A program made the translations under genes and the position numbers. The notes under the pieces were generated by a model, which was not told the origin of the DNA, searched no databases, and was given only the letters and a program-made list of their open reading frames with translations. DNA of 64,000 bases. Origin: Marsupella aquatica (lineage: Eukaryota; Plantae; Marchantiophyta). The stretch lies in assembly GCA_973895155.1 (NCBI GenBank), contig OZ316891.1:20720169-20784168 (forward strand). The letters run 5' to 3'. Below are positions 2,244 to 62,146 of the stretch, piece by piece. The stretch's first letter is position 1; the number at the start of each line of letters is the position of its first letter.

Positions 2244-2587
2244 TGTTAGATATTGCTCTAGTCTTGTGACTCATGAGCTAACCACAGTTAGTCTAACTCG
2301 GGTTAGGACTTAGCTAATGTTAGCGGTAGTGCTGTTGTGTATATAGCCAGGGCTGATGCCAGACCCTGGTGGAACTTAGGCTCATTGTTACGGAGCTAGT
2401 TGAAAGATAAGGAGAGCTTGTGCTGTGGATGCTTGGTATGTCCGGTCGGCCTAGAGTGCAATAAAGCTCTTGTGTGTTCCCGTGGATGTAGCCTCATGTG
2501 GAGGTGAACCACGTATCTCTCTGTGTCGACTCTTGTGCGTTGGATGGTTCATGGGCATGCCGTTGCGAATGTCGTCTATGCTCAACA
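2244..2587 (+). mobile_element. Solo LTR (344 bp) of the same Ty1/copia family as 43121-49853
   Basis: Runs TGTTAGATATTG...CTATGCTCAACA and is colinear with the LTRs at 43121 and 49510, with scattered substitutions. TSD TGGTC at 2239-2243 and 2588-2592. No PBS or PPT adjacent. Confidence 0.95.
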
Positions 2588-21600: not shown

Positions 21601-22075
21601 TCCAACTCTCTTACAAAACCCTATAAGTGGAGCCTCTCTTCATTTCAGCACTGCCAAGCTTTGAATTTCTGGACTAGAAGTGAGCAGTAAGACACACATG
21701 AGAGTGATTGAATCGAGTCGGCGTTCGGGTCGTGATTTGAATAGCTCTCTCCAACAGCTGAATCGTATGTGCAGGAATCCACGTTGATCGAGAAATGGAA
21801 AGGCAAACTAATCCAAAACAGTGAAGGAAGATGCAAGTCTTATCCCTTTCTTGAGAGAGCGTTAAGTTCATGGCTTGAGTAGCTTCATTTGCTCCTTGTG
21901 GATCTTTGCACACAACCTACTGTAATTGAGCTGAAGATGAAGCGAGTGTGCCTCGCAGGAATAGAAACGCACGCAAAACAAGAATTCAGTTCATTAGCAG
22001 ATCATGTTCGTGTTAAGGCAAAGTTCAGGTGCAGGTAGCTAGTCCAGCATTGCTACCTTTGGAGGTACTACAGAA

Positions 22076-23806
22076 ATGACTGGAGGGTGCATCTGCGCAA
22101 TATGTTATGAAGATGTGGACCCTGCCAGCGAGCTTCTGCAGTCCATTGCCCTCTGCGGCCATGTATTTCACGAGCTCTGCTTGCAGCAGTGGATCGAATT
22201 CTGCCCAAATGGTCGCGCACCCACTTGCCCTCTATGCAAACAGCACTGTGGTGTCAAAGATGTTCATCGTCTTTACTTCCAGTCGGATTCCTCTCTGGTA
22301 AAGAAGGATGTCACTCATGAACCCTGCCAGAAGAATCTATCGGAGAGAGAGCTTTCCCAGGAGGACCAAGTGAAACTCTGCAGGTTGGAGGCGAAGGTGA
22401 CAATGCTCACAGCAGAATGCAAGGCCTCGAGGGAGAAACTATCGACGGCTGAAACCGAGGGACACAGACATTTGGAGCAGGTGAAAGTGCTTGAAACAGA
22501 GAAATCAAAATGGAGGAAAGACAAAGGCCTACTTGCTCAATCAATTGCCAGAACTCAAGAGGAGCTTAGGAAAACCGTACAGCAAAGAGAGGAATTGTTA
22601 AAGAAGACAGAGGCAATGGCTAATGACGTTGCTGCGTACAGGTTGGCTACTGATGTGAACCTGACTGAGGTTGACATGTCTAGGCTCATTTCTCCTGCTA
22701 GCCGTTCTGCCAGTAAAGATGACGTCATTGATATGATGACGAAGACCCTCTTTCTCCAGAACAGGGCATTCAAGGATCTCATGCACAAGTGCCAAGAACT
22801 GGGGATGGGGGAATCTCGAGCTGAACAAAAGTCCCAGAAGCTGACCGAGCAAGTCAGGCGCATGAAGGCACGGATACAGGAGATGGCCAAAGCCGAAGAG
22901 GAGAAGGAGAATGCAAAAGTGAGATCTCTAACCAGAACTAGAATTTCTGCCGAGACAAACATGAGGCCAGAATTATCCCTAAATGATGCGCATTCTGCCC
23001 AGCTGGCCAATGCCACCGAAAACATTCCCTTGCTATCTCGTCCTCATTCGAAGAAAAAGAAAGTTGGCGACAGCAAGGAGGCAGCAAGTCTGCCTCTAAC
23101 TCCTGTGGCTCCCAATGTCATCTGTCTCGATGGTGATAGTGAAGCATCAGAAGCAGAAGCTCAAAGAGCAAAGGTGAACAGGCAGGGGTGGGTTGCCGGC
23201 TTCTCGGAAATCGTGCCTGCAACTCATGACTGTGACGAGGAGTTTACCTTGAGTAAGAAAAATCAGAATAGTCTCAGTCGACCTGATTGTGCAACAATTC
23301 AGAGTTTGGAGCCTTATTCCCAGTCGTTTGGTGAGGAGACTCAGGAGGACTTTGCTCTAAGAACAACGCTGAGACAATGTGCTGACGAGGGAGAAGATGT
23401 AGGATCTTCTCGGTCTAAAGTAAAACCCAAGCTGACTATCGGTTTGGATGGAGATATTGATGATGTAGATGCCCTCAGACGGAGGCCAATGTTGCCCATT
23501 AGGCAGGAATTGGGTCTTGGACAGGGAGCAACATCCTTCACGCGACCCCAATCTGCGACGGGCTTCCAGATGCCTGCAACAACGGACCAAGCAGTTCCTC
23601 CTTCCGAAAGCAAATTCATTCTGTCAGGGGCTGATGGTCGCGGTGGCAGGGTTAGAGTTTTGAAGCCTCCTAGGCTTGTTCCTGGAGGTGGAAGTAGCAG
23701 CAGTGTCTGGGGAGCGATGCGTGGAAAGCGATTCAAACCCACCTCTCACATTGGTGGTGCAAGGTCGTCATCGTTGAAAATTGAGCATTTTTTTGGACGA
23801 GGATGA
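22076..23806 (+). CDS. TRAIP: TRAIP-like RING-H2 E3 ubiquitin ligase with coiled coil, 576 aa, single coding exon
   Basis: N-terminal CAICYED...CGHVFHELCLQQW...CPLCKQ...RLYFQS, a long coiled coil, conserved GADGRGGRVRVL, and a C-terminal PIP-box-like LKIEHFF. Confidence 0.85.
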   Translation: MTGGCICAICYEDVDPASELLQSIALCGHVFHELCLQQWIEFCPNGRAPTCPLCKQHCGVKDVHRLYFQSDSSLVKKDVTHEPCQKNLSERELSQEDQVKLCRLEAKVTMLTAECKASREKLSTAETEGHRHLEQVKVLETEKSKWRKDKGLLAQSIARTQEELRKTVQQREELLKKTEAMANDVAAYRLATDVNLTEVDMSRLISPASRSASKDDVIDMMTKTLFLQNRAFKDLMHKCQELGMGESRAEQKSQKLTEQVRRMKARIQEMAKAEEEKENAKVRSLTRTRISAETNMRPELSLNDAHSAQLANATENIPLLSRPHSKKKKVGDSKEAASLPLTPVAPNVICLDGDSEASEAEAQRAKVNRQGWVAGFSEIVPATHDCDEEFTLSKKNQNSLSRPDCATIQSLEPYSQSFGEETQEDFALRTTLRQCADEGEDVGSSRSKVKPKLTIGLDGDIDDVDALRRRPMLPIRQELGLGQGATSFTRPQSATGFQMPATTDQAVPPSESKFILSGADGRGGRVRVLKPPRLVPGGGSSSSVWGAMRGKRFKPTSHIGGARSSSLKIEHFFGRG

Positions 23807-26245: not shown

Positions 26246-27342
26246 GTCGCTCAATGCACGATCCTCTGTAGAACTTCCTGTTAGATCGTCTGTCATCTCG
26301 ACTCCACTATGCAGTTGTTCACATAATTATGGGGATTTCTGGGGTCACAGCCTCTTTTCTTCCGATTGTTTGGGTTCTGCTACACACCAGATTTCTTCCG
26401 TCAACGATTTGTGTTTGGTGCACATGTCATGCCTCTCTCAGGACTCAATTGTTTGGGACACATCAGAATTACTTGCTCGAACTTCGCATCTGAACTTCCT
26501 GTATCGATGATTACTGAGAAGTGTAATGTCTCAATGAAGTTGCACAGTGCATACATCAATGTGATCAATTGCAGTCGATCTGTAAATCTCAGGTCGCTCT
26601 GTAAATCTCACAAACTGTGGAGAACAAACAGAGTAGATGGATCTCAGTCTACAATAGAAATATCTGTGTTGTTGTTTGTCTCCCAATTGAAAAAAGTATA
26701 TCCTCGATGGTGTACTTCCAAGCATGAGGTCAGTTCATATCAATTAGTGCTCCACACACAATTGCATACAAGCGAGCTCACAGTTTTAGAAGTGAGGGGC
26801 TTTACCGTGATGTGCACACAGTTTGAGAAGTGAGGGCTTCTTGAATGAATTTCAATTGGTTTTTTCAAGGCAGAAAAAGAAAGAAAGCGAGGGGCTTTAC
26901 CTCATTGTGCACACAGCAGCACGTAACTTCTAACGTCGAGCACCAATGAAGCAATCAATTCCAGGAAAGAGCACATGCTAATACACTCGGAATTGCAAGA
27001 AAAAGTGGCCAAGAGTTGTCCAATAATAGGGGATAAACCTCAAAATTTGATGGACCTTAACTTAGTAGCCGAGTTAACTTAGTAGCCTAGGTTAAGAACA
27101 GAAAAGGTAGGTTAAGGACAGAAAAGGTTATGGACTACCAATAACCCTAAACCCTGAAGTTTTTGCCATAAAGATTAGTCTCATGTCATGACCAAAACTC
27201 ACTCTAGTGGCTAGTGAGAAAACAAACAAACTTGTATACAACCCTGTGAAAAGCTGTGACCATCTGTTTATGGTCAAAAGCCATCGTCCCCAACTTTGAA
27301 GCATCAAAACACCCTAATGAATGAGTTTTGTAACCATTCTCT

Positions 27343-43120: not shown

Positions 43121-46100
43121 TGTTAGATATTGCTCTAGTCTTGTGACTCTTGTGCCAACCACAGTTAGGCTAACTCAGGTTAGGACCTAGCTAAGGTTAG
43201 CGGTAGTGCTGTTGTGCATATAGCCAGGGCTGATGCCAGACCCTGGTGGAACAAAGGCTCATTGTTATGGAGCTAGTTGAGAGATAGGAAGAGCTTGTGC
43301 TGTGGATGCTTGGTATGGCCGGTCGGCCTAGAGTGCAGTAAAGCTCTTGTATGTTCCCGTGGACGTAGCCTCATGTGGAGGTGAACCACGTATCTCTCTG
43401 TGTCGACTCTTGTGCGTTGGATGGTTCATGGGCTTGCCGTTACGAATGTCGTCTATGCTCAACAAGTGGTATCAGAGCATGCCTGGGAGGTGACGAGGTT
43501 TTTTCGTGACAGGTTTTTTCCAGCGTTCATTGTCGATGGTACATTCAGAGTTTCATCGCATGAAACTTGAATGTGTGTGGCTGTGCGGATAGGTTAGTGA
43601 GAGGGCTTTCTAACGGTGGTTAGAACTCGCTGATCGGTATCCGTGGTGCGAAGGAATCGAAGTTTGCGTCGTTCAGGTTTTATTCGTGTTCGACGGTTTT
43701 TTGGGGGAGAGACCAGAGTTTGTGTTTTCAACAGTGTGAGCTGTGCGGTGCGGGAGGCGTCGCATGTTGTAGCTCAAGTTGAAGGTTGAAGCAAGCTGAT
43801 CGTTTCGGTAGTTGATTTATTGCCGAGTTGTTACTGAGTGCGACGTGACGAGTGACGGAGGCGTTCAGGTTTTTTCACAAGCTATGGAGCTTGTTCTCAT
43901 CTGAACCGGGTTTCTCTTCGTGACGTCCGACTCGGTGGAAGAAACGCGAAGTGCTACGGCTCAACGGTTTGATCGCGGCGAAGCGGTCGTTTTGAGCCCG
44001 GGATTGGCACTTGATGCGGAGTGAAGGCGACGCGACGGAATTTTTTTATTCTGCTGGAGCAGTAGACTGCGCCGGTGCAATTCGGCAACATTTCTCGTCG
44101 GCGGCGTTCACTTTACTCGTGAGAAGCAACGGCGTTCAAGGTGTGTAAACGGCTTTTTTGTTTTAAAGTCAAATCTTGGCTTTGGTTAGGGCCACTTTTA
44201 GTGTGTATACACACCCTCCCGGCCCTTGGTCCCCCATCGTTTCCCCTTGTACACCCGACCCCCCCGCACCTTGTTTTCCCCTCATCCTTCAGCCGCGGCG
44301 ACGAGCTGCGCAACACCGGCCGACGCTTTTTGTGCGCTCGTATGCCCTCCGCCATACTGTGTCGGTCGCTACCGCGGCACCGCCTTGTCATCGTATGCCT
44401 AGCCCTTTGCGGCTCTACGCTGCTTGTACGCGGCTGTACCCTCATCCCGCCCCGACGCCGGCCATACGCCCTTCGTACCCCCGACCCTTTACGGGGTATT
44501 TTAGGCTTTAAGGGGCTTAAGCACCCCCTTTAGTGCCCATTTTTAGCCTTTTTTTCCCTCTCATTAGTTTGTCCCATGTGCCGGGACCTGCCGCCCTCCG
44601 TTTTAACCGCTTGGACAGGGGGAACTGCCCCCTGTGAGACCTGCTGTACTGTGCGGGGTCTCACCCTGAAAAACAGAGAGCTATTTTTGGCCGTTCGACA
44701 AAGATTCCGTCTGCCGAACGGTAACTTTTTTGGTTCTTTTTCGGTGAGGACGTTGCCACTGGAGTTAGCAACGCAGCGCACCGATCACATCGCGATTCCG
44801 ACGACGGGTTGTACTGGGTATTTTGGTTATTCTCCGAGGTGGTCAAAACGAGGGAGTTTTCCAAGGTTTTACCCACCCCGACCAAAATTTGAATAACTTT
44901 TCTGTCAAATTTTGATTTTGATTTTGGCTTTCAGTATTGGACTCCTAGCTTCGTGGGCTACGCGGTGGTGTTGAGTTTTGAGTTTTATGAGAAGTTTCAA
45001 AAAAAGACGTTTTTTCATGATTGTTTCATATGAGTGACTCGGAGGATACTGGAAGAATTGGCGTCGATAGAGCTTCAGGATCACGACGGTCAAACGGTGA
45101 GTCTGAGGAGGAGTTGCTACCGTTTGAGGAAGAACTAGTGACACCGGTACGATCACCGGTGCGGCGTGCAGTGGAGGAAGCTGTGTTACTACCAGAGCTG
45201 TCGATAGTGGGAAAGAAGAGGGAGATGGCAAGATTCAGAGGAGTAAAGTTTGAGGTGGAGAAGTACGATGGTCATACTGACTACTTGCTGTGGGAGAAGC
45301 AAGTGAAGGGTGTTCTACGGGCCATGGGCTTAGCTCATCTGCTCTCTTCGCGAGAGCAGTATGATGGAGAGGAGGAGATTTCTTTGAGACAGTGGAGACA
45401 GGAGCAGGTGATTGCTGTCAATGCAGTGATGCTATATCTCAAGCCGCACATCATCAAGCAACTGGATGATTATGCGGATTGCACGTCACTGTTCAAGGCT
45501 CTAAGAGAGAAGTACTACCGGGAAGATGCGTCAGACCGGCTGTACAAGAAGTCTCTCTTGATGAGCCTTAGGCTCAAGGAAGGGAGCAAGATGCAGGATC
45601 ACCTAGATGAATTTGACAGTCTTGCGGTGGATTTGTCAAACCTGGGAAAAGGAGTTGAAGATGAGGATAAGGCCTTGCTTCTGCTAAGCTCCTTACCGCC
45701 GTCTTATCAGGGCTTGAAACAGGTGCTCTTGTACAGAGATCTGAAGTCCATTTCGTATAATGAGGTGGTGAGCTCATTATTGTCTGATGATGCTCAGAAG
45801 AAGCTAGGTCAATCACAGACAGCATCTTCTTCTGGCACTGCGCTCAATGTAAAACAGGGGAAGAGCAGCGCAGTGCACGAATGGGCAGAACAGGTTTAGA
45901 TCTACATCACAGGGGAGATCTAAATCCAGAGGGAAATCGCAAGAGAAGAAGCCTCTTGCATGTTGGAATTGTGGCAAGGCTGGCCAGATGAAAAGGGATT
46001 GTCGAGTAAAGGTCCCTACTGCCTCTGCTAATGCGGCATCGAGCTCGCATGAGGTAGATTTACTCGATGATGATGACATATTGTGATGTCAAAGTTATGC

Positions 46101-49100
46101 TCTCAACGTAGTGTCAAATCCAGGTAAAGATGACTGGATTCTAGATAGTGCATGTACTTTTCACATTTGCTCTAGAAGAGATTGTTTCAGTTCTTACACG
46201 GTTTCCAACGGGTCAGTGTTGATGGGAAATGGAATCCCATGTCAAGTTGTTGGACTTGGATCTGTAAGATTTCAGATGTTTGATGGTGTTGTGAGAACGT
46301 TGAGGAATGTGAGACATATTCCCAGCATGATGAAAAATCTCATTTCACTTGGAGTTTTAGAGGCAAATGGCCATCATTGGAGTTTTGCTAATGGTGTCCT
46401 TCAGGTTTCAACTGGTACTAAAGTTGTATTGAAGGGAAAGAGACATAGCAATCTATACGTTTTGGAGGGCAATGTAGTTTGTGATGAAGCCAATGTAACC
46501 TTATCTCATGAGGAGACGGCCCGGCTGTGGCACTTCCGTTTGGGCCACATGAGTGAAAAAGGTTTGGTTATTCTTCAGAAGAAAGGATTACTTTCTAATT
46601 TGCAATCTTGTAAGTTGGAATTTTGTGAGCACTGTGTGCTAGGGAAGCAGCACAGGAAACCCTTCGGAGTTGGAACTCACACCAGCAAGGAGGTACTTGA
46701 GTATGTACATAGTGATGTGTGGGGTCCAGCCCCTACTCCCTCACATTCTAGACGGTTATACTATGTCACGTTCATAGACGATTACTCAAGGTATGTGTGG
46801 ATATACTTTCTACACAATAAGTCTGATGTTTTTGCCACTTTTAAGGAGTGGAAAGCCCAAGTTGAGAATCAGACTGGTAATAAGGTGAGATATCTTCGAT
46901 CGGATAACGGCGGTGAATACAGTTCCGGTGAATTTGGAACGTATTGTAAGGAGCAGGGGATCACCCGCCATCTCACAACAAGTTATACTCCTCAGTAGAA
47001 TGGTGTTTCTGAGAGACTCAACCGAACACTATTGGATCGCTCGAGGAGTATGTTGAGTCAATCATGCTTACCACATGAGTTTTGGGCTGAAGTTGTCAAC
47101 ACTGCAGCTTATTTGATAAATTTTTCTCCATCCAGTTCTATTGGATTCAAGACGCCATTTGAAATGAGGTACGGGCGTCCAACAGATTACTCACATCTGA
47201 GGATTTTTGGATATGATGCTTATGTGCTTACACCTTCCCAGCTTCGATCCAAGCTGGAGTCCAAGTCGAAGAAGTGCATTTTCCTTGGCTATCAGAAAGG
47301 TGTTAAGGGTTATAGGTTGTGGGATCCAGTAACCTGTAAACTAATTGTCAGTAGAGATGTGTCCTTTAATGAATCCAGATCATCAAAGGAGGGGGAGAGT
47401 TCTTAGGACTCCCATACTGACAAGGGGAAATCTCCCATCCCGGACCGGGTTGAGGGGGAGATTAGTCATGATCCAGTTCATGACAGGAGAGATGGAGAAG
47501 CTTCGGGCTTGGAGCTGGTTCCTATGATGGAACAAGAGCAGATTGTTGCTGGGGTACCTCAAATTCAACCAACAACAGTTGCAGATCAGCCTGAGTCATC
47601 TACTAGAAGAACTTCCAGTCGTTCTACTAGAGCTCCTACCAGGTATGGTCAATGGGCAGACTCATCTAAGCTAGATGATATTGACATTGCACCTGATGAA
47701 GATGATATGGCTTTGATCTTGGAAGAAAGAGAGCCTTCTTCGTATAGTGAGGCTTGTGCTTCAGAGCAGAAGCATGAGTGGAATGCAACAATGCAGAGGG
47801 AGTTGCAATCTTTGAGTGACAACAAGACATGGGAGCTGGTGGAGCTTCCAAGAGGTCAGCAAGTGGTGGACAGCAAGTGGATTTACAAGTTGAAGGACAG
47901 TCCTTCAGAGGGTGGAGATAAGATCTACAAGGCACGGCTTGTTGCCAAGGGATTCACTCAGGAGAAAGGAGTGGATTACAATGAGGTCTTTTCACCGGTA
48001 GTTAAGTATTCCACAATTCGGATCTTGTGTCAGCTTGTTGTGTTTTTTGGTCTGGTGATGGATCAGATGGATGTTGTTACTACTTTTCTCTATGGCAACT
48101 TGGAAGAGATGATCTTCATGAGACAACCACTAGGCTTTATGAAGATGGGCCAAGAGAACTTAGTTTGCAGATTGCTCAAGTCCTTGTATGGATTGAAGCA
48201 GTCTCCCAGACAATGGAACAAGCGGTTTGATGATTTCATGCTTGCTCAAGGTTTTACAAGGATGGTGTATGATCCTTGTGTGTATACGAAATCAGTCAAG
48301 AATGATGCATTCGGTTTCATCATTCTGGTGATCTATGTGGATGACATGCTGATTGTGGCTAAAGATCAATTTGAGGTTGACAGTCTCAAGGCGAAATTGA
48401 GTACTGAATTCAGGATGAAGGATCTTGGTAAGGCCAAGAGGATCTTAGGGATGGAGATTTTTAGGAACTCTGAGACTGGACAGTTGTGCTTGAGTCAAGG
48501 TCATTATGCGAGGAAAGTACTTGCACGATTTAACATGGAAAATTGTAAGCCAGTGAGTATTCCTTTAGCTTCACATTTCAAGTTATCATCGGCTTTCTCT
48601 CCTACGGATGCTGTGGAGAAAGGTCTGATGACTAAGATTCCTTATGAGAAGGCAGTAGGCAGTCTGATGTATTTGATGACTTGTACTAGGCCTGACTTGG
48701 CCCTAGCGATGGGCAAGGTTAGCAGATTCATGTCAAATCCAGGGAAGGTACACTGGGAAGCTGTGAAATGGATTCTCAGGTATGTGAAGGGAACACAGGA
48801 CTATGGATTACTATTTGATAACAGATCAGATAGAACGTTGATTGGCTATGTAGATTCTGACTATGGAGGCTGTCTGGATACAAGGAGGTCTACAACTGGG
48901 TTTGTATACACTCTTGGAGGAGGATGTATCAGTTGGAAATCTACCTTGCAGAAGTGCATATCTCAGTCTACTACAGAAGCAGAGTATGTTGCAGCAGCAG
49001 AAGCAGCAAAGGAAGCAATTTGGTTGGATAAGTTGATCGCGGAGATGGGTTTAGAGCATGGAAAAATGACTCTAAACTGTGATAGTCAGAGTGCTCTTCA

Positions 49101-49853
49101 CTTGGCTGCTAACCAGGTGATGGATAGTAGGGTGAAGCACATTGATATCAGGTACCATTTTATCAGGCAAGCAGTGTCTGATAAAACTTTTGAGCTAGTC
49201 AAGATTGATGGAAAGCTCAATCCCGCTGATGCCTTTACCAAAGTGATTCCTTTGGAGAGTTTCTCAAGACACCGTGCTACTTTGCAGGTTTTGCAGTTGT
49301 AGTGCAAGTAGAGTTATTTAGCAATGTGTGACTATTTGTATATGGATTACTCATTCCTGTTAGGCTACGACTTAGTTCTAGTTAACCCTTAGTTAACCCT
49401 TGTGGTTTTTAGGGGGAGACCTGGTTTGGTGATTGTCTAGAACTTCCCGCTGAGGATTCCATATGGTAGCTTTTAGTCCAGTCCCCAAGACAAGAGTCAA
49501 GGGGGAGTTTGTTAGATATTGCTCTAGTCTTGTGACTCTTGTGCTAACCACAGTTAGGCTAACTCAGGTTAGGACCTAGCTAAGGTTAGCGGTAGTGCTG
49601 TTGTGCATATAGCCAGGGCTGATGCCAGACCCTGGTGGAACAAAGGCTCATTGTTATGGAGCTAGTTGAGAGATAGGAAGAGCTTGTGCTGTGGATGCTT
49701 GGTATGGCCGGTCGGCCTAGAGTGCAGTAAAGCTCTTGTATGTTCCCGTGGACGTAGCCTCATGTGGAGGTGAACCACGTATCTCTCTGTGTCGACTCTT
49801 GTGCGTTGGATGGTTCATGGGCTTGCCGTTACGAATGTCGTCTATGCTCAACA
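43121..49853 (+). mobile_element. Full-length Ty1/copia LTR retrotransposon (Tnt1/Tork-like)
   Basis: LTRs 43121-43464 and 49510-49853 (344 bp, TG..CA, one mismatch seen). TSD GTGCC. PBS TGGTATCAGAGC (tRNA-iMet) at 43467-43478. PPT AAGGGGGAG before the 3' LTR. Domain order gag-PR-IN-RT-RNaseH. Confidence 0.98.
45029..49302 (+). pseudogene. Disrupted copia gag-pol polyprotein
   Basis: Gag KFEVEKYDG and LLSSLPPSY, Zn-knuckle remnant CWNCGKAGQMKRDC, PR WILDSAC, GAG-pre-integrase LWHFRLGH, IN HSDVWGP and LRSDNGGEY, RT YVDDML, RNaseH CDSQSA and KHIDIRYHF. A +1 frameshift lies near 45856, with stops at 46084, 46996 and 47404. The start coordinate is approximate. Confidence 0.92.
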
Positions 49854-50854
49854 GTGCCTTGTTAACAAAATTTCCTTTTTGTTCCCAGGTTGCACTTGCT
49901 TCTTATGCGTTTGTCCACTTTGGTTTGCATTTGGCCCTTTCTGCTTACTACATTCTTCCACTTTCCCTCTTGAGACCAAAGTAACATTAAAAAGTAATGT
50001 ATTGAGGTGTGCAGATTTAGTGTTATATTAACACACTAGTTCTTGGGTAGAGCCCAAAAATGATTGTACACTCTCGAATTAATGTAACACTTATTCCCAT
50101 GAACAGTGTAGCATTTCTCCTGCACACAATGCTGGTGGCATTCCTGAAAAAAACATTACAACCTTAAAAGAGGTTACCTGATGGTGTGGTGTACTAAGGG
50201 AGTCCTGGTTTCTCCTCAGCCCCTTGCTAGTCCACTTTGGGAACCTGGTTCAACTCTCTCTCCCTCTGTGGGGTCCCTGTTGGATGCCAGGGTATTGCCC
50301 CCTTGCTGCTACCCTAGGGTAATGAGCAAGATCTGGAAGAGGAATGTATGCTCACTTGGATGGGTCTCGTTAGAGTCTGGTTTCGGTTTTCAAGGGAAAA
50401 AAAATGGTTTTCAAGGGAAAAAAAATGGTTACCTGATATGACATGAATGATTTTGCCGGCCAGCGAGAAAAGTAAGGTATAAATGCACGGAACAAACCGT
50501 CACCCCCGTACCGGAATGTAATACGGAGAGTACCGGAATGTAATAAGGAGACTGAGCAATGAAGAAACCAACACAGTAACACAGTGGAATGAGCTGACAT
50601 GGTGGTTAACACATTAATCACGCGTTCAGAGACACAACCAGAACCTGCTCCTCTCTTCGTCGACATCATTCTTCCTCCTTCTGCCTCCGGATTCCTGAAT
50701 TTGTAATCTTTGACTTCTCAGAAACGACCATCACACGCTCTCAATCAAATCCACTCGCTTGCTCGTCCCTCTCTCACTTCACTTCACTTCACTTCTCTTC
50801 TTGTAGAGGAGTCGTGGTGTGGAGTCTGCTGGTATCGCATTGTGGAACGGAAAG

Positions 50855-51470
50855 AGAGAATGCTGGATTGCTGCGGGTGTTTGGTTTGGAGTTGAGGCTA
50901 GGCTCCAACTACTGTACATTCAGCTTTTCCTTGCTGGTAGTTACTGTACTCGATATTTGTGCAAACCTCGGGACTCCCTCCCTCCGTAGAGCTAGTGTAG
51001 ACTCTGCTGGTTTCTCCTTGTGGAACGAACGAGAAAATGCTGGATTGCTGCCCGGTGTTTGATTCAGAGTTGAGGCTAGGCTCCAACTACATTCAGCTCT
51101 TCCTTGCTGTTGGTTAGTGTACTCGATATTTGTGCAAAGCTCCGGACTCCCTCCCTCCCTAGAGGTAGTGTAGACTCTGCTGGTTTCTCCTTATGGAACG
51201 AACGAGAGAATGCTGGATTGCTGCCCGGTGTTTGATTCAGAGTTGAGGCTAGGCTCCAACTAAATTCAGCTTTCCTCATAAATGCTCTTGCAGTTAGTTA
51301 CAGTGCTCGATATTTGTGCAAGGTCCGGTCCCACAAGTTTGAGGAAGAGATTTGTCGCCAGCTCCCCGCTCTTGTAGAGCTGGTGTAGACTCCGCTGGTT
51401 TCTCCTTTTGGAACGGAGGAGAGAATGCTGGATTGCTGCCCGGTGTTTGATTCAGAGTTGAGGCTAGGCT
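50855..51470 (+). repeat. Tandem duplications with ~175-215-bp units, 3-4 copies, in the probable 5' leader upstream of the PADRE gene
   Basis: 'gagaatgctggattgctgcccggtgtttgattcagagttgaggctaggct' at about 50857, 51032, 51206 and 51421. Confidence 0.85.
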
Positions 51471-54400
51471 AGGTCCCTACTACTAAAGTTACCTTTTCCG
51501 AAATGGTAGAGCTCGTTGCGAACTTGCTATTACAGTTTTCCATATTTACAGCTCCGGACGCACATGTTTACAGTAAGAGATTTCTCTCCAGCTCCACCCT
51601 CGTTTCCCTTGGGGATGAATGATATGGAGAAAATTTAGAAGCTAGGGTGAGATGCGATAGATTACTGCACCTCTAAATTTTCAGAGCAGCTGCTGTAGCT
51701 AACAGTAAGTTGTTCTCCGTCGTTTTGGTAGGAAACAAGAAAAGTGCGAATCCCGAGCTCATCAGAAGAAAGTCAGGGAACATTTAGGTGGGCTGCCCGC
51801 TAGGCACCGGACTCCCGTCCGCAGAGAATGCAGCTAGCTCATAGACAGGCAGCAATTTGTGAGCAGCTGTAGAAAGAGGATCGCTCGTAGGTGTGTGCGT
51901 GCTTTCGTATATTTTATGTTTCGTAGACGACTGGCATACATGGGGGAACCAATTCGGTGTCCAGGGATATATGACTCGATCATTGATGTTGCGAGTTGGG
52001 AAAAGGAAGTGTATTGACTCCCTGTCCGCGCCAGCACTGTGGTGCCGATTGGTGCACACAGTGTTTCACGGCTGGGTGGTTCCCTCCATCTTTGAATGGA
52101 TCTGAGCCGGAATGGATACAGTAGATGGATAAAAGGCAATCTGTGAAATTGGGTCCTGAACGTTTTGAATTCCCACCTGGAGAGGATTTTTTTGTCAGTC
52201 GTGGCGAAGAGGAAGAAGGAAAGTCAGAACGTGGTATTTCGAATTCTTAGCAGCCCGACGTCGGTGGAGGAGCTCGCTGAATGCTTGGATGGAAGTCAAG
52301 GATCGAACAAGAGTAATCAGCCCGTAGAGTGATGTGCAGTTTGTGTGATGAGCTAGTCATGTCGCGCGACCGGTACGAAGGCTGTGCGCACGAAAGATCG
52401 TAAGTATGTTCCCCCTTTGCTTCCTTTCTAAATATTCTCGCGTCAATTTGTGGATTGGTTTCTCGTTTATGTGTTACATTATTAGGCGCTAAAGTTCTGA
52501 AGTGGTAGCGATTCCCTGATCTCTTGTCCTTTCTCATCCCGTGTCTATAATTAGCGAGGAAGTACTTTTCAGCTATCGGTGTTAAGTCTCCCAGTTTGCC
52601 TCGCTCCAGGGGACGAATGACTAACCGCTTTTGATTAGATCGTCCATGAAGTTGTGTAGCAGGTACAATAGCTTTCGCTACGGAATGTCAGTTTGTCGAG
52701 AGGTTAGCCACTTACTTTTCAACCTGGGTAGGTGAGTAATCTTAGCCCGTGGTTTAGTCCAATAGCTACCATATTCTTCGATGCTGGAGACCTCCGGTAG
52801 AGATTGAGGTCTTCAGTTACGAACCTCACTCCGGTAGAGATTGAGGTCTTTACGAACCACTCTATCTTATTGCAGAGGTATTTTTGGCGTAACAACATTC
52901 TGAAAACCACTAGTGCAGCGAAGCCTATTTTGCACCATGACGGAACATCCATTGAGAACGTTGAATTCTCTGGCGAGGTGCCTGGACAGGAGTCCATTGA
53001 GAACATTGTGCAGTAGAATGTTGTGGCGACTGTTAGCTCAGCTATATGTAAGCTGCAGTGAAAACAACTTCTTGTCGATGATAACAGCACTGTTGCATGA
53101 GATCGAGCTGGATCCGGTGCAAGCTGGATCCGGTGCAAGCTGGCTGTCGGTGGGAATGCTTCAGTTTCAGACTGTTGAATATAATCGGTTGGCTGCAGAA
53201 TAGACAGACAGGTAATAAAGTCAGCTCAAATCTGACTCAAGAATCGTTAGAGCACTTACTTCCCTCGTCCTGAAGTTAGTTAGAAATTGACGTATACAGT
53301 AATTGAGCGCGGATGCCTCCAGTGTCAGTTTGAGTAAAAAGCTGGGATTCAGGAGCTGAAGTTGGACCAGACGCACATTCCGTATTGTGACGTTGGAGCG
53401 CAGCTTGGCAGTTGTCGAGCGACTACGGAGCGAGTTTAGAACGTTCGAGTACAGTTTGCAGTCAGGAGGAGCTGTGCCAGCGGAAATGCCTGTTTCTTAT
53501 TATTTCTCCTCACCGCTGGAGGGCTCTGATACATACAACCTGCCAAATCGGTTTTCGTTTATAAAAATCGAGGTCCAGAACTGACTGTGGGCTGAGCGTC
53601 ATTTTCATTAGATAGGGTCGGATTTTGTTTGTCTTCTGGGCCAAACTCGGCTCTGTGTTAGAAAAGGAAACCTCTACACTGGCCTCTGGGTGTCCCATAC
53701 TCAGAATGACGAAGTGACCAACACTACCCATTCGTCTCCTGTGCATTTGTCGATGCCGTTCTTAAGCCGGGTAGTGCGCTCTGGGCGTGATCCTTGAGTT
53801 CTCTTCTGTGGCAGGGGAAGTGTCGTTTTTGGGCTGGGAATTCCGAGTCGCAGCTTCGAAGCTGTGAGATGCCTAGAAAGTACCTTGAATGGGATCTATT
53901 CCCACGTCACGGAGGTCTAGTTGTCTAGTCGTCTAAATGTGGTGTTTTTGAAAACCGTCCTGTTTCATGGGCCCAGTGAGGGCAACTAGCTCGACAAAAG
54001 GAATAGATCTCAAGAGAAATTGCTTCCTTCGAGTTCCTCCTCGAGACGGGTGTCTGAAAAGTACGGACCCAGCTTCGGGTCCTCCCAGTTTACGAGAGAT
54101 CGTTTTGGGTTTAGGCTTTTGTCAATGTTGAATCAAATGCCTGAGCACAGTTTCTCAACTAATAATCTTTGATGATTTTCGTTTACCAGCACTCAGCTCC
54201 ATACTGTACCTGACCAGCAGCATAGCCATGCGTCATGGCTGCATTGCTGCTCACGACAGCAAACAAACAGACTGAGATTCATTTTCACTCACCGTTCACG
54301 GAAAGGGATTGAAAGGTTTTCCCTTAGTTTGCTCGATCCCTTGCCAACTGAGTGTTGTGTTTAAATGTTGCCATTGTGATGTAATTCTTCATCCCTGGAC

Positions 54401-56732: not shown

Positions 56733-57312
56733 GATACATAGACATTTGAACAGAGTTGAAGCCTATCTAGGATTCATATCCAGAGTATGCCATGATAGCC
56801 ATCGACAAACGCTCAGCAGGGAAACGTCTGGCGCCGAAACAGAACTTCGTAGAGGGTAGTGCTGCTGCTACCCAAAGAGCAAGAAGCTCGTCTGATTAGC
56901 TCTACAATGGGATGCCGCTGTAAGGGAGAAAGGAACCGTACGTATCTCCTGCGCACAAGGAAGAATTCCCGGGGCGCCCTGGGCACCAAGCTCCTCCCGA
57001 CCAGAGGGGAGTCTTCTAATCAACAGAAGTTCATCAGACTAGGACCAGGACGAAATTTGTCAGTGGCTAGATCTAATCAGTTCTCTTGGAGTCCCAAAGT
57101 TTTATCGGCTCCTACACCCCTATCTGTCCCATGGAGAAATTAAATCTCCGTCAGTCAATTGTACATATCATTGTTCTGAAATCTACCGACCTCCCATATA
57201 CATTGATCTTGGGATCGACGAAGAAATCATCTCTCGAGTGCGCATTGATCTACGTGCAAATTGTGGATGTGACATGTCTCAAGTTATTTCTCGGTCGTAC
57301 AACGAATGGAAC

Positions 57313-57629
57313 TGTTGGAAATGAACCACACTCGAACGAAGATGGAACTGTAGCTCAGTGGTAGAGCACTACGATGTACACGGGAGGTCCTAGGTTCAAT
57401 TCCTAGCCGGTCCATGCTGTTGAAAGTTCCAACATGGTATCAGAGCCAAAGAATAGGAGTTTCCCTTGTAACGAGTGCGGCTCAAGGGTGAGTGTTGGAA
57501 ATGAACCACACTCGAACGAAGATGGATACAGCCACAAAGGGCCTGTAGCTCAGTGGTAGAGCACTACGATGTACACGGGAGGTCCTAGGTTCAATTCCTA
57601 GCCGGTCCATGCTGTTGAAAGTTCCAACA
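57313..57629 (+). mobile_element. TRIM (non-autonomous mini LTR retrotransposon) with tRNA-derived LTRs
   Basis: LTRs 57313-57434 and 57493-57629 (TGTTGGAA...TTCCAACA). TSD GGAAC at 57308-57312 and 57630-57634. PBS TGGTATCAGAGCC at 57435-57447, PPT AAGGGTGAG at 57484-57492, and a 58-bp internal domain. Confidence 0.95.
57539..57609 (+). pseudogene. tRNA-like sequence within the 3' LTR of the TRIM (a 5'-deleted copy lies at about 57349-57414)
   Basis: Acceptor GGGCCTG/CCGGTCC+A, D-arm GCTC-AGTGGTA-GAGC, T-arm CTAGG-TTCAATT-CCTAG. A box TAGCTCAGTGG and B box GGTTCAATTCC. The anticodon arm does not fold canonically. Confidence 0.8.
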
Positions 57630-58639
57630 GGAACTGTGTTGTGGTTCGGAAGATTTTCTCAAGTACAACAGATTGCGAATTGGCGGTCACTCCTTCCTGT
57701 GAGAAGCTATTTTAGAGCTTGAGGTGATCAGAGTCAGGGACCTCCTGAATCGCAAACAAGGTTTGACTTAAAACTTCTAGAACATGCTGATCAAGCCGTG
57801 TAAAAGAGATGTGTTTGAAATCTCCCTCCGGTGTTCACAATTGTGACTCAGTTCTAGAAAGAACCTGTCAGTTCAAAACCTTGATGAAAGACGAGAAGAA
57901 TAGAGATGTTTGTGTGCCAAGTGTTCCCTAATTCAATTTCAAAAGTGAATACAAATTGAAGCCAAAAGTGATTGTGGCCAAGTCAGAGAGCAAAAGGGGT
58001 GTCAAAGTTCTCCCCTAACCAAAGTGTTTGTTATGACTTTATTTGTGGGCGTCTCACCCTTATGAGGTACTTATTTTGGTAGTCTATAGTGATTTTGTCT
58101 GGCCGCAACAGATGTATGTCTATGTATGTCCTGAGCCGTCACTGAGTCTATAGCTATGCTTTGACACGCCCTAATACAATGGTGGCATACATCCAGGAGT
58201 TGCAACCCTTTGAGATTAGATTCCTAAAATTGACATGACTGGGATGGCGAGGGATGAGACTTTGCACCCACAAAAAAAAGTGAAGTTGTAGGCTGTTTAA
58301 ATTCTGCCACATTGAGCTCAGAATGGTGTAGCATGCCCTAGTGCTTGACTAGGCCTTTGCAGGGTTGAAATTTAAAGATGGTGCCCATGGATTCGAACTT
58401 TATTCTCTCAAAATCTGCATCAATCTCATATCAGGTAGTTGCACTATCCTTGCATGGTAAAGTAATTCCACAAGAAGAATATCCAAAACATGAAAAAGTA
58501 TGGTGAACTGACAATAATCAGCATTCGTGCTAGCAGTATTTACGCAAAGCTTAAAACAATTTGCAGAATGCCCCACAAAAAGGACTTGATGTGAGTTGTT
58601 GGGTAGTGTCACACAGCACTACAATGGGAACAGGATGCC

Positions 58640-59004: not shown

Positions 59005-59299
59005 GTGCAAGGAGGGCCGGCCTATAGAGAGTGGGGCAGGGCACTTATGGGGCAACGGGAAGCACATATGGGCAAGGGGTGCACATTTCTTCCATCAATG
59101 GTCAGGGAAAATAGCTAATTGAAGACAACGGCTAAGGATCTTTCCTGCCCATGAACTTTTTTAGGGAGCGCATTTCTTCCATCAATGGTCAGGGAAAATA
59201 GCTAATCGAATCCAATGGCTAAGGATCTTTCCCGCCCATGAGCTTTTTTGTATTGGGACGAAGGACAAAAAAAAGGGGATCCCTTATTATAGTTGTAGA
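59005..59299 (-). mobile_element. Non-autonomous Helitron-like element, 3'-truncated, with an internal duplication
   Basis: Reverse complement begins A|TCTACAACTATAATAAGGGATCCC, identical to the start of 61913-62146, and is colinear with it. Confidence 0.55.
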
Positions 59300-59594
59300 T
59301 TGTGTCACTCCATACCATGAGAAATACAATTATGATGTTTAAATCCAAGTATGTATCATAGGTGCCAGGTTTTGATGTGCTAATATCTCGAGTTCATTTG
59401 TGTTGTTGTGCAATGTCGCCCAGTATAAGTATACCCCCCATACTTATACTTTAGAGGAGGCAGATCAGCAACAGTGCGATAATGTGTGATGGTGAGGGGC
59501 TAGTGTAGCTTTCTAGACCCCTATCTACAGGAGAAGTGCAATAGTGTATAAACCAATCTTGGAGTTGGTTTGACTGGAAGCAAATAAGGGGGAG

Positions 59595-60575: not shown

Positions 60576-61912
60576 GCTTCTTTCTGAGACAAGTACACTG
60601 TTTCCCGTAATTAGTATCATAACTTATATAGTCTCCCTGCATAAATAGTATCACACACACGACGAATAAGGGTGTGATTACAAATCTGAAAAAATATAAA
60701 TATTAGTGCAAGTAGAGAGTTCAGTCTATTGTCATTCGTTCTAATTTTGATTTTGATTGTATTTATAACCTGGTTTTCATTTCATCATACTTTAATGAAA
60801 TCTGACTTTCAATTGACATTCATTTTTAATTTTATATGCCATTGCAAATATATCTTACTACTAGAAATATTTGTACTTTTTGTAAACTATATACATAATA
60901 TGTGTTCATCACACACTATTTGAGTGTCACCAAAAATAATCTCACTTACTCTAATTTAGAATAACATGTATTTAGTCTCACTTTTTATATAGTCTCACAC
61001 ACATTAATTATGGTGACAGCTTTCAAAATCCTTTGTTCCCAAATACTGGGTGTGAGATTAATTACGGTAATCAGTGTAGCCCTTAATATTGTGCATACAT
61101 GCACAGAAAGGGCTCCGTGTATCCCCACAGTTGCATACCCGTCCCTGTTCACAAGCAAAGTCTAAATACTAAAAAGTTATGTTACTGGACAAATTATGGC
61201 CCCACTCTACAAAGTAAGTCATGAACAGTAGGCTTTGATTGAAACTTATAATATAGATTTTGCTGTCCACCGAGGGTGAGGCCGTACACTCAAACTTCCC
61301 CCTAAGCCTTGATATCCAATTTATTTCTATACAAAGTTTGGCAGTGTTTTGCAACTTTTTGGTCAAACCACCACAAATTTTGTTAGAAGTTTGGGACCCA
61401 TGAGCCAAAATATGACAGCTCCATAGATCTAGGGAAATCTAATGATCATACAATCAAACGTGTCTAAGGGCATGATCCCCCTGGAAGAAGGTCAGACCAC
61501 CATGCAGTTACTCATGATGGCATCCATCCACAATCATGGTATAAGTGCGTACTTGCTCTGATTGCTTAGGGAAACTTGCACTTGACTCGTAGGTATCACT
61601 AAGTGCGTCTCAAAGTTGCCGATGATGGCTTTCAGCTTTATCACATGGTTAGAGCTTTTTCCACAGGGTTGTGTAAAAGTTTTTTTTTGTTCATTTTTTC
61701 ACTAGCCTCTACAGTGACTTATGGTCAAGGCAAATGTGACCAATCTTTCTAGCAAAAAATCATGGACTACAAATTTGGTAGTCTACAGCTTTTTCTATTC
61801 ATAATCTCAATTAAAGTCCACCAAATTTTGAGGTTTGAGGCTCCTATTATGTTCTAACTCGTAAAAGCACAGTGCACTTCCAACTACCGTAGATGCTAAA
61901 TGAATTTCCATA

Positions 61913-62146
61913 TCTACAACTATAATAAGGGATCCCGCATTTTTTTGTCATTGGTCACCATACAAAAAAGCTTCTGGGCGGGAAAGATCCACAGCCGTTG
62001 GATTTGATTAGCTGTTTTTTCTCACCATTGATGAAAGAAATGTATACCTCTATCACTTATTTGCTTCCCGCTGCCCCGTAATGCCCCCGGCCAATCCCTA
62101 TGGGCCTGTCCTCCCTGCACAGTGCAAAGCACTGGCATAGGGCTTG
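61913..62146 (+). mobile_element. Non-autonomous Helitron-like element (234 bp)
   Basis: 5' A|TC start and a 3' hairpin CAGTGCAAAGCACTG (62120-62134) followed by CTTG|T (degenerate CTRR). Inserted between A and T with no TSD. Confidence 0.6.

What the first reader, a model, noticed from the sequence alone, without database searches (positions are those of the whole stretch)
57308..57634. Minimal LTR retrotransposon (TRIM) whose LTRs are built on a tRNA gene: a Pol III-driven LTR element
Seen: a 317-bp element with TSD GGAAC, two LTRs, an iMet PBS and a PPT. Each LTR carries intact A and B boxes (57351-57361/57393-57403 and 57546-57556/57588-57598) in a tRNA-like fold with a degenerate anticodon arm. 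There is no TTTT inside the element (first at 57654), so Pol III starting in the 5' LTR could read through PBS, PPT and the second LTR to make a terminally redundant genomic RNA. Its PBS and its PPT/LTR junction resemble those of the copia element in this window. Known: Cassandra TRIMs use 5S rRNA-derived LTRs, and tRNA-bearing TRIMs have, as I recall, been named Helenus, so the type may be described although this family may not be. Inference: a SINE/LTR hybrid parasitising copia machinery and dispersing Pol III promoters, here about 580 bp after the PADRE stop codon.
Basis: partly seen in the sequence, partly recalled or inferred. Interest (0 to 1): 0.9.

Follow-up and report, generated by a model that had tools for sequence, protein, structure and literature searches.

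The report
Liverwort mini-retrotransposon with tRNA-like ends
A 317-base gene-less jumping element, multi-copy and absent from the same spot in a close relative, carries a broken tRNA-like gene in each end repeat in what is likely a leafy liverwort; the kind was described in 2024 as Helenus, and the self-complementary loop that replaces its anticodon may serve to pair two RNA copies during replication.

Summary
The element is real: 5-bp TSD, two LTRs with 8-bp inverted termini, an iMet-type PBS, a PPT, and a tRNA-like unit with boxes A and B in each LTR. A relative's contig holds the empty site, and the family occurs in at least four coded organisms. The host is likely a leafy liverwort. It meets every testable defining feature of Helenus (Kojima 2024), so the kind is known. 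This scan has met it before (37 findings, at least 16 genomes). I found no earlier bryophyte record.

Corrections: the LTRs are unequal, because the 5' LTR lacks 15 nt at the tRNA start. The window's copia is disabled and its junction spacing differs. Pol III transcription is untested.

New observation: the anticodon-position loop is a palindrome (TGTACA). A sister subfamily appears to swap it for TGGCCA by a double change. The Selaginella member has a different palindrome at the same place. By eye, 80 of 89 fungal Helenus loops hold a palindrome, against 27 of 81 animal ones and a background near 25%. A kissing-loop dimerisation role is plausible (about 35%) but unshown.

The parts
57308..57312 (+). 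5' target-site duplication GGAAC
   Evidence: a single copy at the empty site in organism B (joint 57307 to 57630)
57313..57434 (+). 5' LTR, 122 bp, termini TGTTGGAA/TTCCAACA; net 15 nt shorter than the 3' LTR around 57346-57347
57344..57414 (+). tRNA-like unit of the 5' LTR (box A 57351-57361, box B 57393-57403); acceptor stem damaged by the deletion
   Evidence: Rfam RF00005 42.9 bits; stem pairs listed
57375..57380 (+). palindrome TGTACA in the anticodon-position loop, 5' copy
57435..57446 (+). primer binding site TGGTATCAGAGC, no spacer after the LTR; same 12-mer as the window's copia and as Cassandra; iMet identity recalled
   Evidence: the same junction in relatives (table 7)
57435..57492 (+). 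internal region, 58 bp, non-coding
57472..57514 (+). imperfect inverted repeat (arms 57472-57484 and 57502-57514) that would loop out the PPT and the start of the 3' LTR
   Evidence: fold (z -0.63, not significant alone); same layout in the window's copia (10 of 10 bp); known feature of copia elements (PMC2829016 section 8)
57484..57492 (+). polypurine tract AAGGGTGAG abutting the 3' LTR
   Evidence: most laid relatives have purines at 57489 and 57491
57493..57629 (+). 3' LTR, 137 bp
57539..57609 (+). tRNA-like unit of the 3' LTR (box A 57546-57556, box B 57588-57598); acceptor 6 of 7 pairs with G3.U70 and A73, D stem 4 of 4, T stem 5 of 5, anticodon stem 3 of 5
   Evidence: Rfam 46.3 bits
57570..57575 (+). 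palindrome TGTACA in the anticodon-position loop, 3' copy
57630..57634 (+). 3' target-site duplication GGAAC
57654..57657 (+). first TTTT downstream, in host flank; would be the earliest Pol III stop for this copy (inferred)

Best explanation
This is a recently inserted copy of a multi-copy, non-coding LTR retrotransposon (TRIM) of the Helenus kind, with a tRNA-derived unit in each LTR, in a host that is likely a leafy liverwort; it is likely transcribed by RNA polymerase III and likely copied by the proteins of a Ty1/copia element. Shown: the anatomy, insertion with a 5-bp duplication, and the spread of the family. Inferred steps: (1) boxes A and B recruit Pol III, which would start at or just before the tRNA-like unit of the 5' LTR (about 75%). 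(2) With no T run inside, the RNA would run through PBS, PPT and the second tRNA-like unit and stop in the flank, so the tRNA-like unit is the terminal redundancy. (3) Host initiator tRNA primes at the PBS, and the PPT, held in an inverted repeat as in copia elements, primes the second strand. (4) A copia integrase, probably not from the family in this window, inserts the cDNA (about 80% copia). (5) The anticodon loop no longer decodes; its palindrome would let two RNAs, or the two ends of one RNA, pair loop to loop for packaging or strand transfer (about 35%).
For: Anatomy. Empty site: (X3 record 17, 3259 nt, depth 64). Family: in X1 the summed depth is up to 5895 on the element against 19 on the flanks, 314 contigs laid, and record 2 is a second full-length copy with 40 other letters and 13 gaps. 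The LTR is followed by a PBS-like sequence in organisms B (43 contigs), K (19) and D (8) (table 7). Listed variants cluster in the anticodon stem (57565-57569, 57576-57580), with none listed at 57558-57564 or in box B. Definition and plant member of Helenus: PMC10886601. Copia link: 5-bp TSD and 3'-end Met-type PBS, PPT inverted repeat. Palindrome: and by-eye tallies.
Against: The cloverleaf is not the predicted minimum-energy fold, and the anticodon arm alone is predicted unfolded. The loop hexamer is mostly paired in the predicted 314-nt RNA (unpaired probability 0.08-0.62). This copy's 5' unit is damaged, so this copy may be a poor donor. The window's copia has stops at 46996 and 47404 and 2-nt spacers. 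UGUACA pairs weakly with itself (-4.8 kcal/mol), whereas HIV-1 selects GC-rich palindromes with central G-C pairs (PMC5874298 passage). In Ty1 the initial kissing contact is between two different motifs, not a palindromic loop (PMC5454406 passage). Animal Helenus show no palindrome excess (27 of 81).
Confidence: 0.85

Rival explanations
1. An ordinary Pol II TRIM that carries a dead tRNA or SINE head in its LTR as a passenger; boxes A and B play no part in making the genomic RNA.
For: No transcript evidence was available. Kojima states that the Pol III promoter of Helenus is not experimentally validated.
Against: Across four organisms the listed variants avoid box B and the D stem while CpG and non-CpG changes pile up in the anticodon stem (the table is blind near the ends of the laid stretch). 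U3 is only 46 nt and varies between subfamilies (table 7). Acceptor and T stems differ from Helenus-1_SMo by changes that keep pairing (by eye).
Confidence: 0.12
2. It is a Helenus element, but the loop palindrome is incidental: inherited from source tRNAs (anticodons AGN give CTAG), produced by CpG decay, or acting as a DNA-level protein site, not an RNA pairing site.
For: 23-26% of random or canonical loops and 4 of 12 real tRNA loops hold a 4-nt palindrome. Fungal rows are related, not independent. Animal Helenus sit at background (27 of 81). Weak duplex energy and poor predicted exposure. The pattern was noticed after looking.
Against: Different palindromes occupy the same place: CTAG, CATG, CCGG and GTAC at positions 32-35 in fungi, three of which lose the U33 that the canonical-loop model assumes. 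The liverwort and Selaginella hexamers differ at all six positions and both are perfect (about 5e-4 if independent). The central TA to GC double change in organism K cannot be explained by pairing within one hairpin. A supplement part read after the idea was noted gave 29 of 31.
Confidence: 0.55
3. A pair of functional tRNA-Tyr genes, or a local duplication of a tRNA pseudogene.
For: ARAGORN calls both tRNA-Tyr(GTA); Rfam scores exceed the gathering threshold.
Against: The loop reads ATGTACA, with A32 and C37, and the anticodon stem has 3 of 5 pairs. LTR termini, PBS, PPT, TSD and an empty orthologous site are present.
Confidence: 0.02

Closest known systems
Helenus-1_SMo, Selaginella moellendorffii (Kojima 2024, PMC10886601)
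   Same: Similar size (325 bp against 317), 5-bp TSD, TGTT.GAA/TTCCAACA termini, PBS TGGTATCRGAGC with no spacer, PPT abutting the LTR. By eye the tRNA blocks match at 24 of 26 and 27 of 32 nt, with G3.U70, A73 and a palindromic loop at the same offset.
   Different: U3, the middle of the internal region and the anticodon arm do not align by eye. SMo has TTTT in U5; this copy has no T run. The loop palindrome is a different sequence. The core match does not prove common descent: SMo matches the fungal Helenus-1_AmAr at 31 of 32 and a bivalve family at 26 of 32 in the same block.
Fungal Helenus (Pucciniales, Agaricomycetes; Kojima 2024)
   Same: Copia-type features, 5-bp TSD, tRNA-like unit with intact acceptor, D and T arms, loop palindromes (80 of 89 by eye), and an inverted repeat around the PPT visible in several.
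   Different: Most use half-tRNA priming, have T-rich U5 stretches, and carry the palindrome at positions 32-35 rather than 33-38.
Cassandra (5S rRNA-bearing TRIM; PMC7215508 passages; summary in PMC10886601)
   Same: Non-coding TRIM with a Pol III-type promoter in both LTRs and the same PBS 12-mer; the only such lineage with validated Pol III transcription.
   Different: Its promoter is 5S-derived (boxes A and C), it is 565-860 bp, and it is reported from vascular plants. No 5S match here at E up to 1.
Retroviral dimerisation initiation sites (PMC5874298 passages) and Ty1 kissing loops (PMC5454406 passages)
   Same: A short palindrome in an apical loop, with alternative palindromes in different lineages.
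   Different: A functional analogy only. HIV-1 palindromes are GC-rich and sit once in the leader; here the loop is AU-rich in this copy and would occur twice per RNA. Ty1 starts with two different complementary loops.

Membership tests
Helenus (TRIMp3) | TRIM: under 1000 bp, non-coding, two LTRs | tested here: met
   317 bp, LTRs 122 and 137 bp, 58-bp internal region; reported range 311-1263 bp
Helenus (TRIMp3) | [quoted passage not shown] | tested here: met
   motifs as defined
Helenus (TRIMp3) | PBS and PPT between the LTRs | tested here: met
   LTR-PBS junction in relatives
Helenus (TRIMp3) | 5-bp TSD (plant and fungal members) | tested here: met
   GGAAC twice; empty site skipping 322 nt
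Helenus (TRIMp3) | interspersed, multi-copy family | tested here: met
   314 contigs laid in X1, a second full-length copy, unrelated loose ends at LTR termini; not a copy number
Helenus (TRIMp3) | tRNA-like part unlikely to be a working tRNA | tested here: met
   anticodon stem 3 of 5 pairs, A32, C37; sequence evidence only
Helenus (TRIMp3) | transcription by RNA polymerase III | not testable with these tools
   no RNA holder listed; also unvalidated for Helenus in the paper
Helenus (TRIMp3) | mobilised by an autonomous LTR retrotransposon (copia for 5-bp TSD members) | tested here: inconclusive
   PBS, TSD length and PPT inverted repeat fit copia; the window's copia is disabled and has 2-nt spacers; no genome was held to look for another
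Same lineage as Helenus-1_SMo | shared sequence beyond the generic tRNA core and generic copia signals | tested here: inconclusive
   by-eye comparison only; fungal and bivalve members match the core about as well
Cassandra | 5S rRNA-derived sequence in the LTRs | tested here: not met
   no 5S match at E up to 1 in 56800-58200
tRNA-derived SINE (SINE2) | single tRNA head with a 3' tail, no LTRs, PBS or PPT | tested here: not met
   two LTRs with inverted termini, PBS, PPT, no A or T run in the element

The most novel reading that the evidence does not exclude
Copia-dependent Helenus elements use the captured tRNA twice: as an internal Pol III promoter in DNA, and as a folded RNA scaffold whose anticodon loop has become a self-complementary kissing loop that dimerises or circularises the genomic RNA. 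The loop is kept palindromic through coordinated double changes in liverworts, a lycophyte and fungi. If the liverwort and Selaginella families share descent, this lineage would also go back to the earliest land plants and predate Cassandra.
Probability: 0.3. Interest if true: 0.7.

Novelty: new member of a known kind. Interest (0 to 1): 0.4.

Why it matters
As it stands it is a clean, young example of a rare element type, in a plant group for which my searches found no record, and it comes with an empty orthologous site. It also warns that tRNA finders will count these LTRs as tRNA-Tyr genes. If the palindromic loop is a dimerisation site, it gives a concrete handle on an open question stated in Kojima's paper: how a TRIM that shares no LTR sequence with its helper stays dependent on it. 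It would also explain why several of the tRNA types inflated in rust genomes (Thr-AGT, Ser-AGA, Sup-CTA, Ala-TGC) are those whose loops can read as palindromes. A 70-nt RNA is enough to test it.

Tried and rejected
No whole genome was held, so no copy census, TSD survey, phased covariation or helper search was possible.

A box A + box B + PBS pattern scan of the metagenome collection gave 14 loci; 14 of 14 lacked a second LTR and were bacterial-type tRNAs or chance matches. No RNA holder was listed, which says nothing on expression.

Weak Rfam matches to mascRNA and Plastid-ycf2 (E 0.16-0.88) are below their thresholds and were set aside.

A plant-type CAA start motif (recalled) lies just before the 3' unit, but other subfamilies have a different sequence there (table 7), so I dropped it as evidence.

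Folding z-scores were not significant for the PPT hairpin (-0.63; copia -1.38) or the tRNA units (-0.29, +0.41).

I could not tell whether the short 5' LTR form exists in other copies: the longest listed relatives carry the long form, but the tables are cut. Organism C (X10) had only 9 short, shallow contigs and is not counted as a host. Absence of listed variants near the ends of the laid stretch is not evidence: the change at 57417 does not appear at its twin 57612.

The naive binomial P values ignore relatedness, predate, and are not used. G.U-tolerant pairing rescues 5 of the first 7 fungal misses, but its background is 44%, so this is not significant.

Full report
1. Observation. The element lies at 57313-57629 (317 bp) between two copies of GGAAC. 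It consists of a 122-bp LTR, a 58-bp internal region and a 137-bp LTR. The LTRs are identical over 34 + 87 nt and differ only by a net 15-nt loss in the 5' LTR at the start of the tRNA-like unit. Both have perfect 8-bp inverted termini. There is no TTTT inside the element; the first is at 57654. The PADRE frame (PF14009) ends 581 bp upstream on the same strand. No other copy lies in the window.

2. It is a mobile, multi-copy family. No genome was held, so I laid public contigs on the locus: 7 of the 24 runs listed, in two calls. In X1 (organism A) contigs run from both flanks into the element with no differences, so X1 may be the window's source. Summed depth there rises from 19 on the flanks to 5895 on the element, 314 contigs were laid, and one holds a second full-length copy with 40 other letters and 13 gaps. 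The tool warns that summed depth is no copy number. In X3 (organism B) one 3259-nt contig at depth 64 joins 57307 to 57630 with nothing between: the empty orthologous site with one GGAAC. Its flanks differ from the window at 13 letters and 20 gaps over 408 nt on the left and at 10 and 2 on the right, so B is a close relative and the insertion is younger than the split or polymorphic. One search shows the LTR in organisms B (325 contigs), D (55) and K (95), followed by a PBS-like loose end in 43, 8 and 19 contigs. Organism C gave 9 shallow contigs and is not counted.

3. Host. A window RING protein is 72% identical over its whole length to a Calypogeia fissa protein; the next plant matches covering about half of it reach at most 45% (27 hits). 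The host is likely a leafy liverwort. This rests on one protein.

4. What is known. Kojima 2024 (PMC10886601; I read parts 1-4 of 6 of the text; a word search; supplement parts 1, 3, 4, 5, 7, 8, 9 of 11; and two supplement searches) defines Helenus as TRIMs with a tRNA-like sequence in the LTR, PBS and PPT between the LTRs, and 5-bp TSDs in fungi and plants. The only plant member is Helenus-1_SMo of Selaginella. All features testable here are met. Pol III transcription is not validated for any Helenus. By eye SMo matches this element at 24 of 26 and 27 of 32 nt in the two tRNA blocks, and in termini, PBS and junction spacing. Two stem positions differ on both sides and keep pairing (acceptor 5-68, T stem 51-63). 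But SMo matches a fungal member at 31 of 32 and a bivalve member at 26 of 32 in the same block, so common descent is not shown. Searches for a bryophyte record found none (PMC13570524 passages only cite Kojima). The library lacks most subscription papers, and Repbase was not searchable. This scan has 37 earlier findings on Helenus-type elements in at least 16 genomes, none holding the bryophyte or palindrome words that I tried. One search listed two phage tRNA look-alikes with palindromic loops, seen after I had noted the idea and not checked.

5. Mechanism. Shown: insertion with a 5-bp duplication, and conserved cis signals. Among differences of 8% or more in any of four runs, one search lists none at 57558-57564 or in box B, and most lie in the anticodon stem (up to 26% at 57567 in X3). 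The table is blind near the ends of the stretch. Inferred: Pol III starts at the 5' unit and, lacking an internal T run, makes an RNA of about 314 nt that has the tRNA-like unit at both ends. This differs from SMo and many fungal members, which have T runs in U5. A Met-type 3'-end PBS is typical of copia lineages and also of most chromoviruses (PMC6317226 passages), so it does not decide the helper alone. The inverted repeat around the PPT is a described copia feature (PMC2829016 passages and section 8); it is present here (not significant alone) and in the window's copia. That copia shares the PBS 12-mer and 10 of 11 PPT bases, but has 2-nt spacers at both junctions where the TRIM has none, and two in-frame stops. 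It is therefore not a demonstrated helper. That such spacers reflect integrase end-processing is my recall.

6. The palindromic loop. The anticodon-position loop reads ATGTACA; TGTACA is one of only two distinct 6-nt palindromes in the element, the other lying at the T-stem. In X3 the loop positions vary by at most 6%, against 7-26% for single changes at the most variable stem positions next to it (57567, 57568, 57576-57578), though several of those are CpG sites. In organism K three changes, at 57569, 57572 and 57573, share the depth value 224.1 and so likely sit on one contig. They give GTGGCCAC, an 8-nt palindrome, and the two central changes are adjacent bases that cannot pair within one hairpin. 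This phasing is inferred from equal depths, and I could not check that the contig has LTR ends. Two other variants (57569 A to G, 57576 C to T) each extend the palindrome to 8 nt. SMo has a perfect hexamer at the same offset that differs at all six positions.

By eye, a strict 4-nt palindrome lies within loop positions 32-38 in 80 of 89 fungal LTRs (25 of 26; 29 of 31; 23 of 29; 3 of 3), with CTAG, CATG, CCGG and GTAC replacing one another at one place. Animal members give 27 of 81 (coelacanth 2 of 2, ctenophore 0 of 1, sturgeons 0 of 2, other fish 0 of 14, oysters 9 of 12; other lophotrochozoans 5 of 13 and wasps 5 of 11; wasps 2 of 18 and 4 of 8). I dropped records cut at part boundaries and two wasp rows whose loop I could not place; parts 2 and 6 were not read; register is uncertain by one base. 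Background is 23-26% by enumeration and 4 of 12 in real tRNAs from the chance loci. The paper's main text holds no 'palindrom', 'dimer' or 'kissing', and a search joining these ideas with non-autonomous elements returned only a Ty1 paper.

Against a kissing-loop role: the fungal rows are relatives; animals show no excess; UGUACA pairs weakly (-4.8 kcal/mol, against -10.2 and -14.5 for two of the 8-mers); the loop is not predicted to be exposed; HIV-1 favours GC-rich palindromes (PMC5874298 passages); and Ty1 starts dimerising through two different loops (PMC5454406 passages). I put the role at about one in three.

7. Verdict. A real, young Helenus-type TRIM: a new member of a known kind, apparently the first from a bryophyte in what I could search. 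The added value is the empty site and the palindromic-loop pattern, which is cheap to test. Interest 0.4; 0.7 if the loop proves to be a dimerisation site.

Noticed in passing
window 43121-49853 (+): Young but disabled Ty1/copia element: 344-bp LTRs with 1 mismatch, TSD GTGCC, gag and pol in different frames, in-frame stops at 46996 and 47404, a 10-bp inverted repeat around its PPT. Lineage not tested.
   Followed up: partly
window 2244-2587 (+): Solo LTR of the same copia family, 94% identical, with TGGTC on both sides.
   Followed up: partly
window 22043-23806 (+): Uninterrupted 587-codon frame for a RING-finger protein, 72% identical over its length to a Calypogeia fissa protein and at most 45% to other plant matches covering over 40% of it; used to place the host.
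   Followed up: partly
window 57539-57609: The unit has G3.U70 and A73, as in the real tRNA-Ala genes printed (alanine identity elements, recalled), together with a Tyr-like GTA triplet. If matured it could be a mischarging tRNA, which may be one reason the anticodon stem is broken.
   Followed up: no
PMC10886601 supplement parts 7-9: Many wasp Helenus carry a 6-10 nt palindrome centred on GATC that straddles the 3' edge of the loop (8 of 18), and 10 of 14 fish families have CATG one base outside the loop; both fail my strict count but may be the same signal in another register.
   Followed up: partly
PMC10886601 supplement: By eye, an inverted repeat pairs the sequence before the PPT with early U3 in several fungal, fish and Selaginella Helenus; not counted, and not seen in the parts of the paper that I read.
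   Followed up: partly
window 59171-59300 with 61912-62042; 27109-27299 with 61610-61807; 50817-51601: Inverted repeat pairs (87% and 73%) and a roughly 175-bp tandem array, probably other repeats.
   Followed up: no
   Followed up: no
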